Shown here piece after piece: positions 1-24,559 of a stretch of 24,559 nt of DNA; positions within the stretch are counted from its first letter, which is position 1, and every line of letters begins with the position of its first letter. The notes beneath the pieces were generated by a model that saw only the letters and a program-made list of their open reading frames with translations, was not told the DNA's origin and did not search any database. The position numbers were made by a program, and so were the translations under genes. This DNA is from a virus, in UHGV virus genome UHGV-0135335; one strand, 5' to 3'.

Positions 1-137
1 GGGGGAGTAAAATCCCTAAAGCCCCCCGCCATTGAGGACTGCCGCTTCCGGTCGATTTTTACGCGTGGGAAATAAGATCTTTTTTTTGGTGATTCTTAAC
101 GTAACAGAAAACGCAATTGATGCATGGAGGTGCACGG

Positions 138-3799: not shown

Positions 3800-4711
3800 A
3801 TGAAATTAAAAATGATTAACCTTCCGCACCTCGCGGATCAGGTCTTCGGTGTTCCGCACTATGCCACGCGCCAGATCATGGACTCGGTGAAAGCTGTCCT
3901 GGTCCCGCGCCTGCAGGGGAACGGTTCTCCGGATTTGTCTATGGCATTCGAATCTGACGACGTTCCGGAGCCAGAGAAAACGCAGGCCGCAGGCGGCGTT
4001 GCAGTGATTCCCGTTCACGGCATCCTGGTGCCGCGGCGCGGCCAGATTACGGCGGCCTGTACCGAACTGGCCAGCTACGAGCGAATCCGCGGCATGATTA
4101 GCGCCGCGCTGAGCGATACAGCCGTCAGTGAAATTGTGCTGGATATCAACTCCGGCGGTGGTGCAGCAGCCGGATGTAAAGAACTGGCCGATTACATCTT
4201 CCAGTCGCGTGAAGTGAAGCCGATCACCGCAATCGTCAATTTCAGCGCGTACTCAGCAGCGTATTTCATCGCGTCGGCATGCAGCAAAGTCATCGTGAGC
4301 CAGACCAGTGGTGTCGGTTCGATTGGCGTCATCATGGAGCACATGGAGGCGTCAAAGTGGGAAGAGAATATCGGCCTGAAGTTTACGACGATTTTCCGCG
4401 GCGATAACAAGAACAATGGCTCGCAACACGAACCGCTGAGCGAGCAGGCCCAGGCGATGTTTCAGGGCATGATCGATGACATGTACGAGAAGTTCACGTC
4501 CTCGGTCGCTGAATATCGTGGGCTGAACCAGCAAGCGGTTATCGATACGCAGGCCGCATTCTATTTCGGTGCTGATGCAGTTGCCGTCGGTCTGGCCGAT
4601 GAAGTTTCCGATCCGCAATCGGCGATCAACGCGATTGCAGCGAAGTACCGAACCCCACAGCAATCAATCCTGTTACGGGCCTCAGTCATGGACATGCAGA
4701 CCCAACTTTAA
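3800..4711 (+). CDS. Head maturation protease / scaffold (S49 / ClpP-like peptidase family)
   Basis: ATG 3800 (MKLKMINL) with GGTGGA upstream. Product contains VIPVHGIL...LDINSGGG...SAYSAAYFIASAC, typical of S49/SppA-type phage prohead proteases. The track ORF extends upstream to 3728, inside the portal gene. Confidence 0.8.
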   Translation: MKLKMINLPHLADQVFGVPHYATRQIMDSVKAVLVPRLQGNGSPDLSMAFESDDVPEPEKTQAAGGVAVIPVHGILVPRRGQITAACTELASYERIRGMISAALSDTAVSEIVLDINSGGGAAAGCKELADYIFQSREVKPITAIVNFSAYSAAYFIASACSKVIVSQTSGVGSIGVIMEHMEASKWEENIGLKFTTIFRGDNKNNGSQHEPLSEQAQAMFQGMIDDMYEKFTSSVAEYRGLNQQAVIDTQAAFYFGADAVAVGLADEVSDPQSAINAIAAKYRTPQQSILLRASVMDMQTQL

Positions 4712-20490: not shown

Positions 20491-21672
20491 TCAAAGTATG
20501 TAGCGCTTGTTTATTTCATCGGCAATTTTCTTAATCCGCTCATTTTCAGTAGCTTCATCCTTCAGCACGGTTCTGGCGAACGGGATCAGGGCCAAAATTT
20601 CGTTGGCGGGAATATCGTATTCCAAGCCTGTAGCCGCAGCACGGATGTAGTTGGTCACATCATTAATTTCTAAAAATGCCTCATCCACTGCTTCACCAAC
20701 CGATTTTTGCTGCTCGGCCTGGTGAGCTTCCAGCAGTTCCTCAATCTTCTGTACTAACGCTGGCGGTACGTTGCTCAGTTGGAAGGATACAGAATCCCCC
20801 TTGTACTTCGCTTTTATCCCTTTACCAAACAGGCGTTCACGCATTGCAGGTTTTACTGGTTTTTGCGCCACCTGGTGTAGCTGGTCAAGAATGTCATCGG
20901 TTTCGAGCTGTTCACCAGCACGCTTACGCTTGGCCAGATGCTGAGCAAACGCAAACATCGCCTCTTCATTCTCGGCATAGGCTTTTGCCAGTGCCTCACC
21001 AGCTCGGGCGCTCAGTTCGTTAGGGTTACGGAACAGGCTAATAATTTCGCGTGGTAGCTCTGCCGTCTTCATGCAGCGGACGATAATTTTTCGGGAGATA
21101 TTCTCAGCTTCGGCCAGCTTGCTGACTGTACCGCCGAACTCATTGGCCAGACGGCGAGCATAGCGCTTTCCGCGCTCGTAAGAGCTGGTCTGCCGGTAGT
21201 CGTTCCCGATCTGTGATAGCCAGGCCATTTGTTCGTCGTCCAGCTCGCCGACGAGAACGCGGTATTCAGAGCTGGTGTAAATGGCTGTCTGGCGGCGGCG
21301 GCTACCGTCGGCCACTTCAATAATGCCAGAGATTTTACGGCCAAATGCTGGGTTCTGTTGCCCGGACGCGAGGAATGACGGGATCAGATCATCCAGCGCA
21401 TCTTTTGTCAGCAGTGCCTGGTCTCGTTCATTTCCGCCCCAGACCATGGTCGCCTTTTCCACCATGTTCGCATCGACGGTTTCCAGTTTGAACGACACAT
21501 CCCGCCCACAGACCGGAAGCGTGATATGGTTCCCGGTCATCCCGCGGACGCGTTCACTGAGGTTAGCCACCGCCGGCGCAGCTGGTTTATGCGCGTCATC
21601 ATGGCGTGGGACCGCGGTCACAGTGTCCAGATTGATTTGTGGTGCGTTTTTCATTACTGGTGCGCGTTTCAT
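20491..21672 (-). CDS. sopB: Partition protein SopB (ParB family)
   Basis: From MKRAPV the product aligns closely with F-plasmid SopB as recalled (LPVCGRDV, GNERDQ, DALDDLIPSF, ADGSRRR, YRVLVGELDDEQM, AENISRKII). ATG overlaps the sopA stop (ATGA). About 70 aa longer at the C-terminus than F SopB. Confidence 0.85.
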   Translation of the reverse strand: MKRAPVMKNAPQINLDTVTAVPRHDDAHKPAAPAVANLSERVRGMTGNHITLPVCGRDVSFKLETVDANMVEKATMVWGGNERDQALLTKDALDDLIPSFLASGQQNPAFGRKISGIIEVADGSRRRQTAIYTSSEYRVLVGELDDEQMAWLSQIGNDYRQTSSYERGKRYARRLANEFGGTVSKLAEAENISRKIIVRCMKTAELPREIISLFRNPNELSARAGEALAKAYAENEEAMFAFAQHLAKRKRAGEQLETDDILDQLHQVAQKPVKPAMRERLFGKGIKAKYKGDSVSFQLSNVPPALVQKIEELLEAHQAEQQKSVGEAVDEAFLEINDVTNYIRAAATGLEYDIPANEILALIPFARTVLKDEATENERIKKIADEINKRYIL

Positions 21673-22838
21673 TTGTTGTTCTCCCAGCGAGTAGCAATCA
21701 GGCGATCGTAAATTTCCCGGCAAACCGGCTCCCAGATAGCGACGGCATTGCGCCAGGCGGTAGGCGTGCTACGTTGGTTTGCAGCCTGCTCAAACACGGT
21801 GCGCATGCGTACCTGGCCTTTACCTACTTCGTCTGTTACGCGGACAACTTCCTTCAGCACCATGCCGCCCCAGGCGTTGCGGATCTGCTCATCCATCCAG
21901 GCAGATTGGTTGCCGACGGCTGTGCTGTATTTAGTTACCAGAACGCGGACATCAGGTTCAAAGCCGCCAAGGTCGACGTTGGCCATCAGGTCGCGAAGCA
22001 TCGTGAAGAACTGAAGAGAGGAAACGTAGTCGTACAGTTCAGCTGGTGTAGGCACAACGATCACATCAGCAGCGCATACGACGTTTATTGTGCCTATGCC
22101 GAGGTTTGGGGCGCTATCAATAACAATCAGGTCGTAGCTATCCCAGACAGACTCGATAGCGGCGCGCAGAAGCAGGTGAGATGCCACCGGCAAGCGACCT
22201 TCTTTCTCCAGTACCTCGATCTCTGATTCGATGCGGTGAATGGCCAGACAGGACGGGATGATATCGAGGTTCGGCCAGCAGGTTGGCTTAATCGCGTATT
22301 CAGCGTTATCACGTTCGCCCAGGTAGTACGGCAGCAGCGTATCTTCTGCGTGGATATGCAGATCAGGGACGTAGCCATGGTACAAACTGGCGGTTGCCTG
22401 TGGGTCAGTCGCATCAATCAGCAGAACGCGAAGGCCCTGCAGTGCAGCCCATTGCGCCATATGTACGCTGGTCGACGTTTTGTATGCGCCACCCTTATGC
22501 GCGGCAATAGCCAGTACAACCGGCGATTGGCCTTCAGGTCGAGACGGACGGGTACCAAAGTGATCGCGCATGGAGTTGATTTGCTCGATGGTATAGCCGG
22601 CACGTTGTGGAACGCGACCGCGAGTCACCATATCAGCCGGCGGCAGTCGCCCACCATCTTCTGCATTGCGAATAGATTGCGGTGTAACACCGATCAGCTC
22701 TGCCGCTTCAGTAATGCCCCAGCGGCGAGTGATGGCGCGAGACTCAGGGCTATCATCGCCAAATTGGGCCTGTGCGATAGCCATTGTCATGGCATGGCCA
22801 CGAGAAATCAGTTCATCCAAACGCGATTTTAAATTCAC
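21669..22838 (-). CDS. sopA: Partition ATPase SopA (ParA family, Walker-type)
   Basis: Aligns along its whole length with F SopA as recalled (AAHKGGAYKTSTSVH deviant Walker A, HAEDTLLPYYLGE, VIDSAPNLGIGTINVVCAADV, VFEQA). GTG start at 22838 is preceded by GGAGAG with a 7-nt spacer. The track ORF extends further, to TTG 22913. Confidence 0.85.
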   Translation of the reverse strand: MNLKSRLDELISRGHAMTMAIAQAQFGDDSPESRAITRRWGITEAAELIGVTPQSIRNAEDGGRLPPADMVTRGRVPQRAGYTIEQINSMRDHFGTRPSRPEGQSPVVLAIAAHKGGAYKTSTSVHMAQWAALQGLRVLLIDATDPQATASLYHGYVPDLHIHAEDTLLPYYLGERDNAEYAIKPTCWPNLDIIPSCLAIHRIESEIEVLEKEGRLPVASHLLLRAAIESVWDSYDLIVIDSAPNLGIGTINVVCAADVIVVPTPAELYDYVSSLQFFTMLRDLMANVDLGGFEPDVRVLVTKYSTAVGNQSAWMDEQIRNAWGGMVLKEVVRVTDEVGKGQVRMRTVFEQAANQRSTPTAWRNAVAIWEPVCREIYDRLIATRWENNK

Positions 22839-22856
22839 TTTCGTACTCTCCGGTAA

Positions 22857-22896
22857 CTTTGCGTAAAAACAGTAAAGCACCAAAAAAGACGCAAAG
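22857..22896. promoter_or_regulatory. Putative sopAB promoter/operator: CTTTGCGT ... ACGCAAAG inverted repeat
   Basis: 8-bp perfect inverted repeat with 24-bp spacing, 20-60 bp upstream of the sopA start. The CTTTGC hexamer is recalled as the SopA autoregulatory site in F. Confidence 0.45.
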
Positions 22897-22951
22897 CAAC
22901 ACAATTTATGCAAAATCCCTTAAAAAAAGATTTTCACAATGACAATCACAA

Positions 22952-22990
22952 CCGTACATCATACGGACAAAACATCCGTACAATGTACGG
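22952..22990. promoter_or_regulatory. Paired palindromes CCGTACAtcaTACGG and CCGTACA-A-TGTACGG (putative operator)
   Basis: Two inverted repeats sharing the CCGTACA half-site, 9 bp apart, in the sopA-TA intergenic region. Followed by the direct repeat TTGATTGA (22994-23001 and 23007-23014). Confidence 0.4.
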
Positions 22991-23232
22991 CTTTGATTGA
23001 CAAAAATTGATTGATGTGTGACCATATGAAGGTTGCAACGAGCTTCAAACATGTATTTAGTCAGTAAGCAATCTATTCATTCATTAGTTAAAGTATTGAT
23101 TTATTAAGAAAACAATAGAGGAATATTAAATGATCAGAGGAACAATCAATCGCGGGGCGGGCAGATACCGATGAACAAGATAAGGAGGCAACCCACTTAA
23201 AAACCAATGTTTGATTTTTGGAGATTTTGATT

Positions 23233-23553
23233 ATGAGAAACACCTACGTAAGTGGTGGTTCCGCAAACGTTGCTTTGGCCGGTGCCAAAGACACGCGCGT
23301 CGAGCTGCGAACCAGCGTCGACATAAAAGAGAAGTTACGAGCAGCCGCTTCTCTGGCTGGGGTAGACATGAGTTCGTTTATTTTGATGGCTGCTACACAG
23401 GCGGCACAGCGCGCTATTGATGCAGAACGCATGCGCGTAGTGACCGCAAGCGAGTGGGCACAACTAAATGAAATCCTGAATACCCCTCATCAGCCAGGCG
23501 ATAAGCTGCGAAACCTGATGACGAGGGAACCTAGGTATGAACGAAAGTACTGA
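23233..23553 (+). CDS. Type II antitoxin, DUF1778 / TacA-like (ribbon-helix-helix)
   Basis: 106-aa product with the usual DUF1778 pattern (LR.S...EKL..AA...G...S.FIL.AA). GGAG then ATG 23233. Overlaps the downstream GNAT gene by 17 nt. Confidence 0.7.
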   Translation: MRNTYVSGGSANVALAGAKDTRVELRTSVDIKEKLRAAASLAGVDMSSFILMAATQAAQRAIDAERMRVVTASEWAQLNEILNTPHQPGDKLRNLMTREPRYERKY

Positions 23554-24091
23554 TGTAAAAATGCAGTTGGTGAAGTGCGGCCCAGAAACAGAAATGAAAG
23601 GGGTAAAAGCCTTCGACTGCGGGGATAGTGTAATTAACAAGTTCGTCCCACAGCTAAAGCGGCAGTGTGGTCGTGACAACATCAACGCATTATTACTGCT
23701 TGATGGGGATAAAAACTTAGTAGGTTTTGCCACGGCCACGCTTTATCAGCTGGGGCGGGAGAGCATCCCGGAAGACACTTATCCGTACGCGCTTCCGCCT
23801 GCAATAGCGGTGATGAAAATCCCCATGATTGCCATCGATAAAAAACTACAAAGGCAAGGCTGGGGGCACGATATTTTACGTGCAATTCTTGATTACAGCG
23901 TCGAAAGCGCTGATTTAGTGAGGGGCATCAAAGGGGTTTACCTCGATGCAAAAATAGAGGCTCGATCGTTTTATGAGAGCTTCGAATTTAGGGCTACCAG
24001 CGAAAGTGTTAGCGAGCATGGCACTATCCCAATGCTTATCCCTATGGATATCCTCCGCGAGAGTCAGAAGAGCTGGGAGCAGTCTGCATAA
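23537..24091 (+). CDS. GNAT-family acetyltransferase toxin (TacT/KacT/AtaT-like)
   Basis: 184 aa with an acetyl-CoA-binding-like segment IAIDKKLQRQGWGHDILRAIL. Gene order is antitoxin then overlapping toxin. Confidence 0.7.
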   Translation: MNESTDVKMQLVKCGPETEMKGVKAFDCGDSVINKFVPQLKRQCGRDNINALLLLDGDKNLVGFATATLYQLGRESIPEDTYPYALPPAIAVMKIPMIAIDKKLQRQGWGHDILRAILDYSVESADLVRGIKGVYLDAKIEARSFYESFEFRATSESVSEHGTIPMLIPMDILRESQKSWEQSA

Positions 24092-24121
24092 AAGCGGCTG
24101 ACGCAAAAGCCAGGAATTAAC

Positions 24122-24149
24122 GAAAGAGCCACCTTTGGGTGGCTCTTTC
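24122..24149 (+). terminator. Strong hairpin after toxin gene (terminator-like)
   Basis: GAAAGAGCCACC-tttg-GGTGGCTCTTTC, a 12-bp perfect stem. The T-tract lies partly within the stem. Confidence 0.5.
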
Positions 24150-24261
24150 GGTTCTGGGTAGCCAAATACAACGTACAGCGCGAAGCGCTGTGGAAGCATA
24201 AGATAAATCAAAACAGCACCAAAAGGTGCAATGTTGATATGAGTGGCTAAAAGCGACAATA

Positions 24262-24526
24262 CGTAACATTATGTTTTTAAATAAAAATAATTGAATATCA
24301 CATAAACTTAGTTAAGCGAATTGGCCATCATAACACGCTGATTCAATATCCTCTTTTATTCATTCAATATCGGCTGGAAATACGCCGTCATTAACGTAAC
24401 ATAATACAAATATGAAATAGTGATATTTCAGAATTCAATAACACTTCATATTATTGCATTAAAAAACCCGTCATCTCGCCGCACAACAATCATCGTAACA
24501 AATAATAAATAAATAACATCGTAACA
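24262..24526. repeat. AT-rich non-coding region with CGTAACA x4, CATCGTAACA x2, ATTCAATATC x2 and palindrome TGAAATA-gtga-TATTTCA
   Basis: Direct reading: CGTAACA at 24262, 24395, 24494 and 24520; ATTCAATATC at 24341 and 24363; palindrome at 24413-24430. No ORF of 60 aa or more. Confidence 0.5.
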
Positions 24527-24559
24527 CATTATAAATATCGACACATCATACTAATATCG

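What the first reader, a model, noticed from the sequence alone, without database searches (positions are those of the whole stretch)
24240..24559. AT-rich repeat field at the window end, a candidate telomere-resolution flank (tos) or replication/regulatory region
Four CGTAACA repeats (two as CATCGTAACA 26 bp apart), two ATTCAATATC repeats and a TGAAATA/TATTTCA palindrome lie in 320 bp with no ORF. In N15-type elements the telomere resolution site and telN lie just beyond sopA, and the site is flanked by repeats bound by the telomere resolvase. This region is in the right place to be that flank, with the central palindrome and telN expected just outside the window. Iterons of an origin are an alternative.
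Basis: inference. Interest (0 to 1): 0.6.

Follow-up and report, generated by a model that had tools for sequence, protein, structure and literature searches.

The report
Telomere-site flank of a linear phage-plasmid

Summary
The window is a whole metagenome contig (ENA ERZ1744281 NODE_343) carrying the cos-to-tel left arm of an N15/PY54-like telomere phage: terminase, tail genes, sopB/sopA, then a TacA/TacT toxin-antitoxin cargo. Two other assemblies of the same element (100% and 99.9% identical) run 37 and 54 nt further. They show that the window stops inside a fifth ATCGTAACA repeat. A palindrome centre with the N15-type core (AATATACGC|GCGTATATT) lies 45 nt beyond the last base. Seven co-oriented CGWMACA boxes occupy the 365 bp up to that centre (0.25 expected; 0 of 5000 local shuffles). 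The innermost box lies 24 nt from the centre, where N15's L3 box and the equivalent box of nine relatives lie (24-25 nt). Further copies at 47, 85 and 111 nt match positions in relatives whose flanks otherwise do not align. On the telN side of relatives the repeats are mirrored, and the last copy abuts the telN ribosome-binding site. The repeats therefore correspond to the degenerate L3/R3 copies (L1, L2) of N15 tos, most likely accessory protelomerase-binding sites. The ATTCAATATC repeats and the TGAAATA palindrome are real but not conserved. The origin-iteron and centromere readings are not supported. This element's own telN was not recovered.

The parts
24262..24268 (+). CGTAACA box, outermost copy, 343 nt from the palindrome centre
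24395..24401 (+). CGTAACA box, 210 nt from the centre (L001 has a copy at 213)
24494..24500 (+). (CAT)CGTAACA box, 111 nt from the centre (L002 has a copy at 112, L020 at 109)
24520..24526 (+). (CAT)CGTAACA box, 85 nt from the centre (L002 has a copy at 86; L011, L012 and L020 at 84)
24539..24545 (+). CGACACA box. It has the same sequence as the core-adjacent L3-like box and lies 66 nt from the centre.
   Evidence: (family D1)
24558..24559 (+). First two bases (CG) of a fifth CGTAACA box cut by the contig end, 47 nt from the centre. It is completed in L024 and L025. A copy lies at 47-49 nt in all seven left arms examined. Beyond the window lie the L3-like box CGACACA (virtual 24581-24587) and the palindrome centre (virtual 24604/24605).
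24341..24371 (+). Two exact ATTCAATATC repeats, 21 bp apart. They are real but not conserved in relatives. Role unknown; possibly an element-specific site or spacer.
24413..24430 (.). TGAAATA-N4-TATTTCA inverted repeat. It is real but not conserved in relatives.
   Evidence: (I5)
24121..24150 (.). Perfect 13-bp stem and 4-nt loop hairpin after tacT. It is terminator-like and marks the end of the cargo module and the start of the telomere flank.
   Evidence: I1
23233..24091 (+). TacA antitoxin (23233-23553) and TacT-like GNAT toxin (23537-24091). This is cargo inserted between sopA and the telomere flank.
20491..22838 (-). sopB (20491-21672) and sopA (21669-22838) partition genes. This is the landmark next to the tel site in N15-type phages.

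Best explanation
Window 24240-24559 is the sopA-side (telL) arm of the telomere resolution region, the equivalent of N15 tos, of an N15/PY54-like temperate phage whose prophage is a linear plasmid with hairpin ends. The palindromic target of the protelomerase (telRL) has its centre 45 nt beyond the last base of the contig.

The arm carries seven co-oriented boxes, CG(T/A)(A/C)ACA. The innermost (CGACACA, 24 nt from the centre) corresponds to N15's L3 box inside the minimal site. The other six are degenerate copies of it, like N15's L1 and L2.

Proposed mechanism:
1. A protelomerase dimer binds the core plus the L3/R3 boxes. It cuts 6 bp apart around the centre and reseals each strand onto its complement, giving the telL and telR hairpins. 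This step follows established knowledge of TelN and TelK.
2. The extra boxes recruit or retain further protelomerase molecules on the roughly 110-350 bp next to the hairpin. The proximal boxes are about two helical turns apart. This would aid resolution in vivo and/or cap the end against host nucleases such as SbcCD. This step is inferred.
3. On the other arm of relatives, the mirrored boxes reach the telN ribosome-binding site, so they may also feed back on telN expression. This step is inferred and lies outside the window.
For: - **Source:** the window is a whole contig, so its end is an assembly end.
- **Extension:** L025 and L024 continue the sequence as ...TAATATCG|TAACAATAAATGCAATTATAACGACACACATTATTAAATATACGC^GCGTATATT. 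They are 100% and 99.9% identical to the window over 4.2 and 10.5 kb.
- **Core:** TATACGCGCGTATA equals the centre of the annotated N15 inverted repeat, cut at 24802/3. It also equals the cores of L001, L002, L011, L012 and L020.
- **Protelomerase next door:** relatives with an unresolved junction have a protelomerase with TelK_N, muzzle, catalytic and stirrup domains right after the palindrome.
- **Hairpin evidence:** relatives L003, L004, L021 and L031 are snap-back assemblies through the same site, with arms of 313 to 2760 nt or inverted telN copies. L011, L012, L013 and L020 stop 37-75 nt past the centre.
- **Enrichment and orientation:** 7 forward and 0 reverse copies against 0.25 expected, with 0 of 5000 shuffles reaching 7.
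- **Box position:** the core-adjacent box lies 24-25 nt from the centre in all ten elements, including N15 L3.
- **Copy positions:** copies recur at 47-49, 84-86 and 109-112 nt across elements, although blastn finds no flank similarity.
- **Motif-free check:** CGTAAC/GTAACA is the top repeated 6-mer of the mirrored arms in most relatives.
- **Literature:** in N15 the natural TelN target is about 310 bp against 56 bp for telRL. Degenerate copies of L3/R3 (L1, L2, R1, R2) lie in the flanks. Multi-TelN binding is proposed but unproven, and TelN protects hairpins from Mre11-Rad50/SbcCD (PMC12624138).
Against: - Only 9 nt beyond the centre are seen for this element, so the full extent of its palindrome and its right arm are unknown.
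- Its own telN gene was not found. Exact-core scans of the JGI metagenome and IMG/VR collections found nothing.
- No read data were available, so hairpin ends are not shown for this element.
- Protein binding to the outer boxes is not demonstrated in any member. In N15 the C-terminal domain proposed to bind them is dispensable for end protection (PMC12624138).
- For the PY54 relative P840, a flanking inverted repeat was dispensable for processing in vivo (PMC10612081).
- My self versus non-self test of whether an element's repeats resemble its own box was inconclusive. Most elements share CGTAAC-type repeats whatever their exact box.
- The two outermost copies (210 and 343 nt) are weakly positioned and could be chance survivors.
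Confidence: 0.85

Rival explanations
1. The repeats are iterons of a plasmid replication origin, bound by an initiator protein.
For: Short direct repeats lie in one orientation in AT-rich, ORF-free DNA, with proximal spacings of 19-26 bp.
Against: - No replication gene is adjacent. The neighbours are sopA and TacAT.
- In relatives the large Toprim RepA-like gene lies on the other arm, beyond telN.
- In N15, replication starts inside repA (PMC2847241).
- The boxes keep fixed distances to the palindrome centre and are mirrored on the telN arm. This ties them to the tel site and not to an origin.
- Only 7-9 nt are conserved per unit, shorter than typical iterons (about 17-22 bp, from general knowledge).
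Confidence: 0.04
2. The repeats are partition (centromere or operator) sites bound by SopB or SopA.
For: - The region lies on the promoter side of sopA.
- In compact relatives the whole sopA-to-telomere interval is only about 400 bp, and GGTAACA-type boxes also occur close to the sopA promoter.
Against: - In this element a 1.1-kb TacAT module and a hairpin separate the boxes from the sop promoter.
- The sop promoter region has its own palindromes, CCGTACA-N-TGTACGG, at 22952-22990.
- The boxes are asymmetric and co-oriented. ParB-HTH centromere sites are usually inverted repeats (general knowledge).
- They also occur mirrored upstream of telN, on the arm without sop genes.
- An N15 centromere site is reported within repA (PMC2847241).
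Confidence: 0.05
3. Only the innermost one or two boxes matter. The rest of 24240-24520, including ATTCAATATC and the TGAAATA palindrome, is non-functional AT-rich spacer or a remnant of cargo insertion.
For: - In N15, the 56-bp telRL suffices for efficient recombination (PMC12624138).
- The ATTCAATATC and TGAAATA features are not conserved.
- The interval between sopA and the telomere is a variable cargo site: TacAT here, an IS605-type TnpB gene in L001, Bro-N and other genes in L004, and nothing in L010-L016.
- Promoter-like sites are at or below the chance level, and no Rfam family matches.
Against: - Seven co-oriented copies against 0.25 expected.
- Copies at 47-49, 84-86 and 109-112 nt are positionally conserved in elements whose flanks otherwise do not align.
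Confidence: 0.2

Closest known systems
tos / telRL region of Escherichia phage N15 (telO core, L3/R3 boxes, degenerate L1, L2, R1, R2 copies; TelN)
   Same: - The position is between sopA and telN.
- The central sequence TATACGCGCGTATA is identical.
- A box lies 24-25 nt from the centre.
- Further degenerate copies of that box lie in the flank, and the natural target is several hundred bp long (PMC12624138).
   Different: - The box sequence differs: CGACACA/CGTAACA here against CAGCACA/CGGAACA in N15.
- There are more copies on the left arm: 7 over 345 bp, against the L3 box plus at least two degenerate copies (L1, L2) described for N15.
- A TacAT module lies between sopA and the flank.
- There is no DNA-level similarity.
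- TelN of the closest relative is only about 55% identical to N15 TelN.
telRL region of Yersinia phage PY54 / vB_YenS_P840
   Same: - SopA is 82% identical to the PY54-sized contig L006.
- The gene order is the same, with a palindrome upstream of tel.
- GTAAC-core repeats (GTAACCC/GGGTTAC) flank the palindrome on both sides, in mirrored orientation.
- The left cos end aligns with window 50-87.
   Different: - The PY54 palindrome sequence differs outside the CGCGCG centre (CAGCATACTACGC|...).
- PY54 carries icd, not TacAT, in the interval.
- The literature describes a flanking 15-bp inverted repeat rather than a box array (PMC10612081).
Uncultivated enterobacterial telomere phage-plasmids (IMG/VR L001-L003, L005; Salmonella and Raoultella protelomerase clusters P0001, P0002)
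   Same: - These are the closest relatives, with SopA 84-89% identical.
- They have the same ATCGTAACA repeats, the same CGACACA box and the same TATACGC|GCGTATA core.
   Different: - The sequence between the boxes is not alignable.
- The cargo differs.
- The inner palindrome arm differs: ACATTATTAAATATACGC here against AACATATATAATTATACGC in L001.

Membership tests
N15-type telomere resolution region (tos/telRL) of a linear phage-plasmid | Lies next to the sopBA partition operon in a lambda-like structural arm, on the side facing telN | tested here: met
   TerL, tail genes, SopB_HTH and the ParA-type SopA lie upstream. The order matches N15 and PY54.
N15-type telomere resolution region (tos/telRL) of a linear phage-plasmid | Zero-spacer palindrome with a CGCGCG-centred core (telO-like) | tested here: met
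   L025 shows AATATACGC|GCGTATATT 45 nt beyond the window end. Only 9 nt of the right half are visible. The left half matches the full palindromes of L011, L012 and L020.
N15-type telomere resolution region (tos/telRL) of a linear phage-plasmid | L3/R3-type box at a fixed distance from the centre, plus degenerate copies in the flank | tested here: met
   The box CGACACA lies 24 nt from the centre, against 24-25 nt in nine relatives and N15. Six further co-oriented copies follow.
N15-type telomere resolution region (tos/telRL) of a linear phage-plasmid | Cognate protelomerase gene (TelN/TelK family) in the same element, beyond the palindrome in the unresolved form | tested here: inconclusive
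   It is present in relatives L001, L002 and L006. It was not recovered for this element.
N15-type telomere resolution region (tos/telRL) of a linear phage-plasmid | Covalently closed hairpin ends produced at the site | not testable with these tools
   No reads were available. The indirect evidence is snap-back or truncated assemblies at the homologous site in relatives. Three independent assemblies of this element stop at -45, -8 and +9 nt from the centre.
N15-type telomere resolution region (tos/telRL) of a linear phage-plasmid | Protelomerase binds the flanking boxes | not testable with these tools
   This is only proposed for N15 (PMC12624138).
Iteron-type plasmid origin | Iterons adjacent to or within the initiator gene, with initiation mapped there | tested here: not met
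   There is no rep gene in the window. The RepA-like Toprim gene lies on the other arm in relatives. The N15 origin is inside repA (PMC2847241).
SopB/ParB centromere (sopC-like) | Inverted-repeat ParB-HTH binding sites | tested here: not met
   The boxes are asymmetric and all in one orientation. Distinct palindromes occupy the sop promoter region.

The most novel reading that the evidence does not exclude
The conserved array of co-oriented L3-like boxes may be the assembly platform of a multi-protelomerase telomere cap. The boxes lie at 24, 47-49, 84-86 and about 110 nt from the hairpin tip, roughly two helical turns apart, and are mirrored on the telN arm up to the telN ribosome-binding site. 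The cap would be a higher-order or looped nucleoprotein that hides the hairpin from SbcCD, and it would at the same time autoregulate telN. That would give comparative support to the higher-order protection model that the N15 field currently only speculates about.
Probability: 0.3. Interest if true: 0.5.

Novelty: new member of a known kind. Interest (0 to 1): 0.28.

Why it matters
- **Annotation:** this metagenome contig is the left arm of a telomere phage-plasmid, and the physical end of its prophage lies within about 45 nt of the contig end. That is useful for annotating and binning such elements.
- **Assembly signature:** contigs of such elements typically break at, or snap back through, the tel palindrome.
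- **Biology:** across relatives whose flanks no longer align, box orientation and distance to the hairpin tip are conserved. This is modest comparative support for a function of the tos flanking repeats, whose role in N15 is still unproven.
- **Cargo:** the sopA-to-telomere interval is a cargo insertion site, occupied here by a TacAT toxin-antitoxin pair.

Tried and rejected
- **The window ends at the hairpin tip.** I suspected this from ...CGACACATCATACTAATATCG resembling a half-palindrome (after). L024 and L025 show the centre is 45 nt further on, and that the CGACACA at 24539 is an outer copy. Rejected.
- **DNA similarity searches.** Searches of the end region against annotated phages and plasmids found nothing. 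blastn of window 22901-24559 against 16 relatives' loci matched only the TacAT region.
- **Source in representative genomes.** It is absent there. The relatives found were Serratia, Yersinia, Xenorhabdus, Erwinia and Rouxiella.
- **This element's telN or right arm.** A homologue search with L001 TelN, four contig look-ups and a cluster listing gave only other elements' telR ends. Exact-core scans of JGI metagenomes and IMG/VR found nothing.
- **Self versus non-self box/repeat covariation matrix.** Inconclusive.
- **Conservation of ATTCAATATC and TGAAATA/TATTTCA in relatives.** Not conserved.
- **Promoters, small ORFs and Rfam families in the region.** Nothing above chance.
- **Deneke et al. 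2000 (PMC16611).** It could not be read. The N15 tos description is taken from PMC12624138.

Full report
**Observation**

The last 320 bp of the window are AT-rich (GC 0.32-0.34). They have no credible ORFs; the only ones are 30-50 aa.

- CGTAACA occurs at 24262, 24395, 24494 and 24520, always on the + strand. The window holds 9 copies, against 2.2 expected from shuffles.
- The last two copies are CATCGTAACA, 26 bp apart.
- ATTCAATATC occurs at 24341 and 24362, with one-mismatch copies at 24290 and 24433.
- The TGAAATA-N4-TATTTCA inverted repeat lies at 24413-24430.

**Context**

Pfam assigns the following:

| Window coordinates | Strand | Assignment |
|---|---|---|
| 573-2321 | + | large terminase |
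| 20491-21723 | - | SopB (SoPB_HTH) |
| 21669-22913 | - | ParA-type SopA |
| 23218-23553 | + | TacA antitoxin |
| 23537-24091 | + | GNAT TacT-like toxin |

A perfect 13-bp-stem hairpin follows at 24121-24150. This is the left-arm order of N15-type phages. In the annotated N15 record, sopA is followed by the inverted repeat that contains the cut site for prophage formation, and then by the protelomerase gene. PY54 has the same order.

**Source and extension**

An exact-protein look-up with TacT shows that the window is a complete contig, ENA ERZ1744281 NODE_343_length_24559, at about 4.6x coverage. The same element was assembled three more times.

- L025 is identical to the window at 4206 of 4206 overlapping positions, and L024 at 10532 of 10541.
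- They run 54 and 37 nt further than the window...ACTAATATCG|TAACAATAAATGCAATTATAACGACACACATTATTAAATATACGC^GCGTATATT.
- The window therefore stops inside a fifth ATCGTAACA copy.
- A palindrome centre lies 45 nt past base 24559.
- Its core TATACGCGCGTATA is the same as the centre of N15 telRL.

My interim idea that the window ended exactly at the hairpin tip was wrong.

**Relatives**

SopA relatives were found in IMG/VR (L001-L016, 67-89% identical) and in genomes of Serratia, Yersinia, Xenorhabdus, Erwinia and Rouxiella (L017-L022). They fall into three groups at the homologous site.

- **Unresolved junctions.** L001, L002 and the PY54-sized L006 have a palindrome followed by a protelomerase with the TelK_N, muzzle, catalytic and stirrup domains.
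- **Contigs that stop just past the centre.** L011, L012, L013 and L020 stop 37-75 nt beyond it.
- **Snap-back assemblies through the site.** L003, L004 and L021 have arms of 485, 2760 and 313 nt. L031 has two inverted telN copies.

This is the behaviour expected of hairpin-ended linear replicons. TelN of L001 is about 55% identical to N15 TelN and phiKO2 TelK, and 46% identical to PY54 Tel.

**The repeats**

- **Enrichment and orientation.** Counted to the centre, the arm holds seven copies of CG(T/A)(A/C)ACA, all in one orientation. They lie 343, 210, 111, 85, 66, 47 and 24 nt from the centre. Local dinucleotide-preserving shuffles of the same 365 bp give a mean of 0.25 and a maximum of 3 in 5000 trials. 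The five proximal copies are 23, 19, 19 and 26 bp apart, about two helical turns.
- **Innermost box.** The innermost copy, CGACACA, starts 24 nt from the centre. The equivalent box starts 24-25 nt from the centre in all nine relatives examined and in N15, where it is CAGCACA within L3.
- **Conserved positions.** Copies at 47-49 nt occur in all seven left arms. Copies at 84-86 nt occur in five, and at 109-112 nt in three. blastn detects no similarity between these flanks.
- **Motif-free check.** A 6-mer count of the mirrored arms returns CGTAAC/GTAACA as the top repeat here and in L001-L003, L011 and L020. It returns GTAACC in the PY54-like L006, GATACA/CACATA in L004, and GAACA/ACACAA in N15.
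- **The telN arm of relatives.** The boxes are mostly mirrored (TGTTACG). One copy directly abuts the telN ribosome-binding site (AAATTGTTACGGAGTGG...ATG) in L001, L002, L030, L031 and L033.
- **Covariation.** A stricter test, whether each element's repeats resemble its own box better than other elements' boxes, was inconclusive. CGTAAC-type repeats are shared by most elements.
- **Other features.** The ATTCAATATC repeats and the TGAAATA palindrome are not conserved.

**What is known**

- For N15, the natural TelN target (tos) is about 310 bp, while the 56-bp telRL (telO plus L3/R3) suffices for recombination.
- Binding of several TelN molecules to them, and a higher-order protective structure against Mre11-Rad50/SbcCD, are proposed but unproven. 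The C-terminal domain suggested to bind the boxes is not essential for protection (PMC12624138).
- For the PY54 relative P840, a flanking inverted repeat was dispensable in vivo (PMC10612081).
- The N15 origin lies within repA, and a centromere site also lies there (PMC2847241).

**Interpretation**

The region is the telL-side arm of a tos-like telomere resolution region.

- **Shown:** the position, the palindrome just beyond the window, the conserved box geometry, the orientation bias, and protelomerase genes at the homologous junction of relatives.
- **Inferred:** that the boxes bind protelomerase, that they help resolution or cap the hairpin, and that the mirrored boxes regulate telN.
- **Not shown:** this element's own telN, the full palindrome, and hairpin ends in this sample.

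Rivals:

- **Origin iterons:** disfavoured. There is no adjacent rep gene, and the geometry is tied to the tel centre and mirrored on the other arm.
- **SopB/SopA sites:** disfavoured. The boxes are asymmetric, they lie behind a cargo module, and the sop promoter has its own palindromes at 22952-22990.
- **Spacer:** the view that only the inner one or two boxes matter and the rest is spacer remains possible for the distal part.

**Novelty and score**

This is a new, uncultivated member of a known kind of system. Specialists would not be surprised. The positional conservation of the boxes across diverged relatives is a small addition to an open question about tos. Interest is 0.28.

Noticed in passing
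window 1-90: Window 50-87 aligns with the first 38 nt of the PY54 virion genome, its left cos end. The cos junction is therefore at about 49/50, and the contig begins 49 nt on the cosR side. The contig spans almost exactly the cos-to-tel left arm. cos was joined in at least some of the sequenced molecules.
   Followed up: partly
window 23218-24091: A TacA (DUF1778-type antitoxin) / TacT-like GNAT acetyltransferase toxin pair is inserted between sopA and the telomere flank. The same interval holds an IS605-type TnpB gene in L001, Bro-N and other genes in L004 (about 2.7 kb), icd in PY54, and nothing in L010-L016. It is a variable cargo slot next to the telomere.
   Followed up: partly
window 22952-22990: Two palindromes, CCGTACATCATACGG and CCGTACAATGTACGG, lie 24 bp apart (start to start) in the AT-rich sopA promoter region. 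They are probably the Sop operator or a centromere-like site. No further copies occur in the window.
   Followed up: partly
L001, L002, L030, L031, L033 (telN-side arms): The last mirrored repeat directly abuts the telN Shine-Dalgarno sequence (AAATTGTTACGGAGTGG, then ATG), about 160 nt from the palindrome centre, in five elements. This suggests protelomerase autoregulation.
   Followed up: partly
L021/L022 (CP114059.1, Rouxiella badensis pSP2, 116,582 bp): This 'complete plasmid' carries two sopA copies, each next to a telomere-type palindrome, one with 313-nt perfect arms. It looks like a head-to-head dimer artefact, or a replication intermediate, of a linear hairpin plasmid of about 58 kb assembled from long reads.
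   Followed up: no
L004 (IMGVR_UViG_3300012078_000122): This relative uses a different flank repeat (CGATACA/TGATACA) and a core-adjacent box AGATACT, while keeping the TATACGC|GCGTATA core. It may be a specificity variant worth pairing with its protelomerase sequence.
   Followed up: no
L020 R arm (Erwinia tasmaniensis contig end): Seventeen nt past the palindrome centre, the contig continues into CTGTCTCTTATACACATCTCCGAGCCCACGAGAC, the Nextera adapter sequence by my recollection. This suggests the library fragment ended at or near the physical hairpin end.
   Followed up: no
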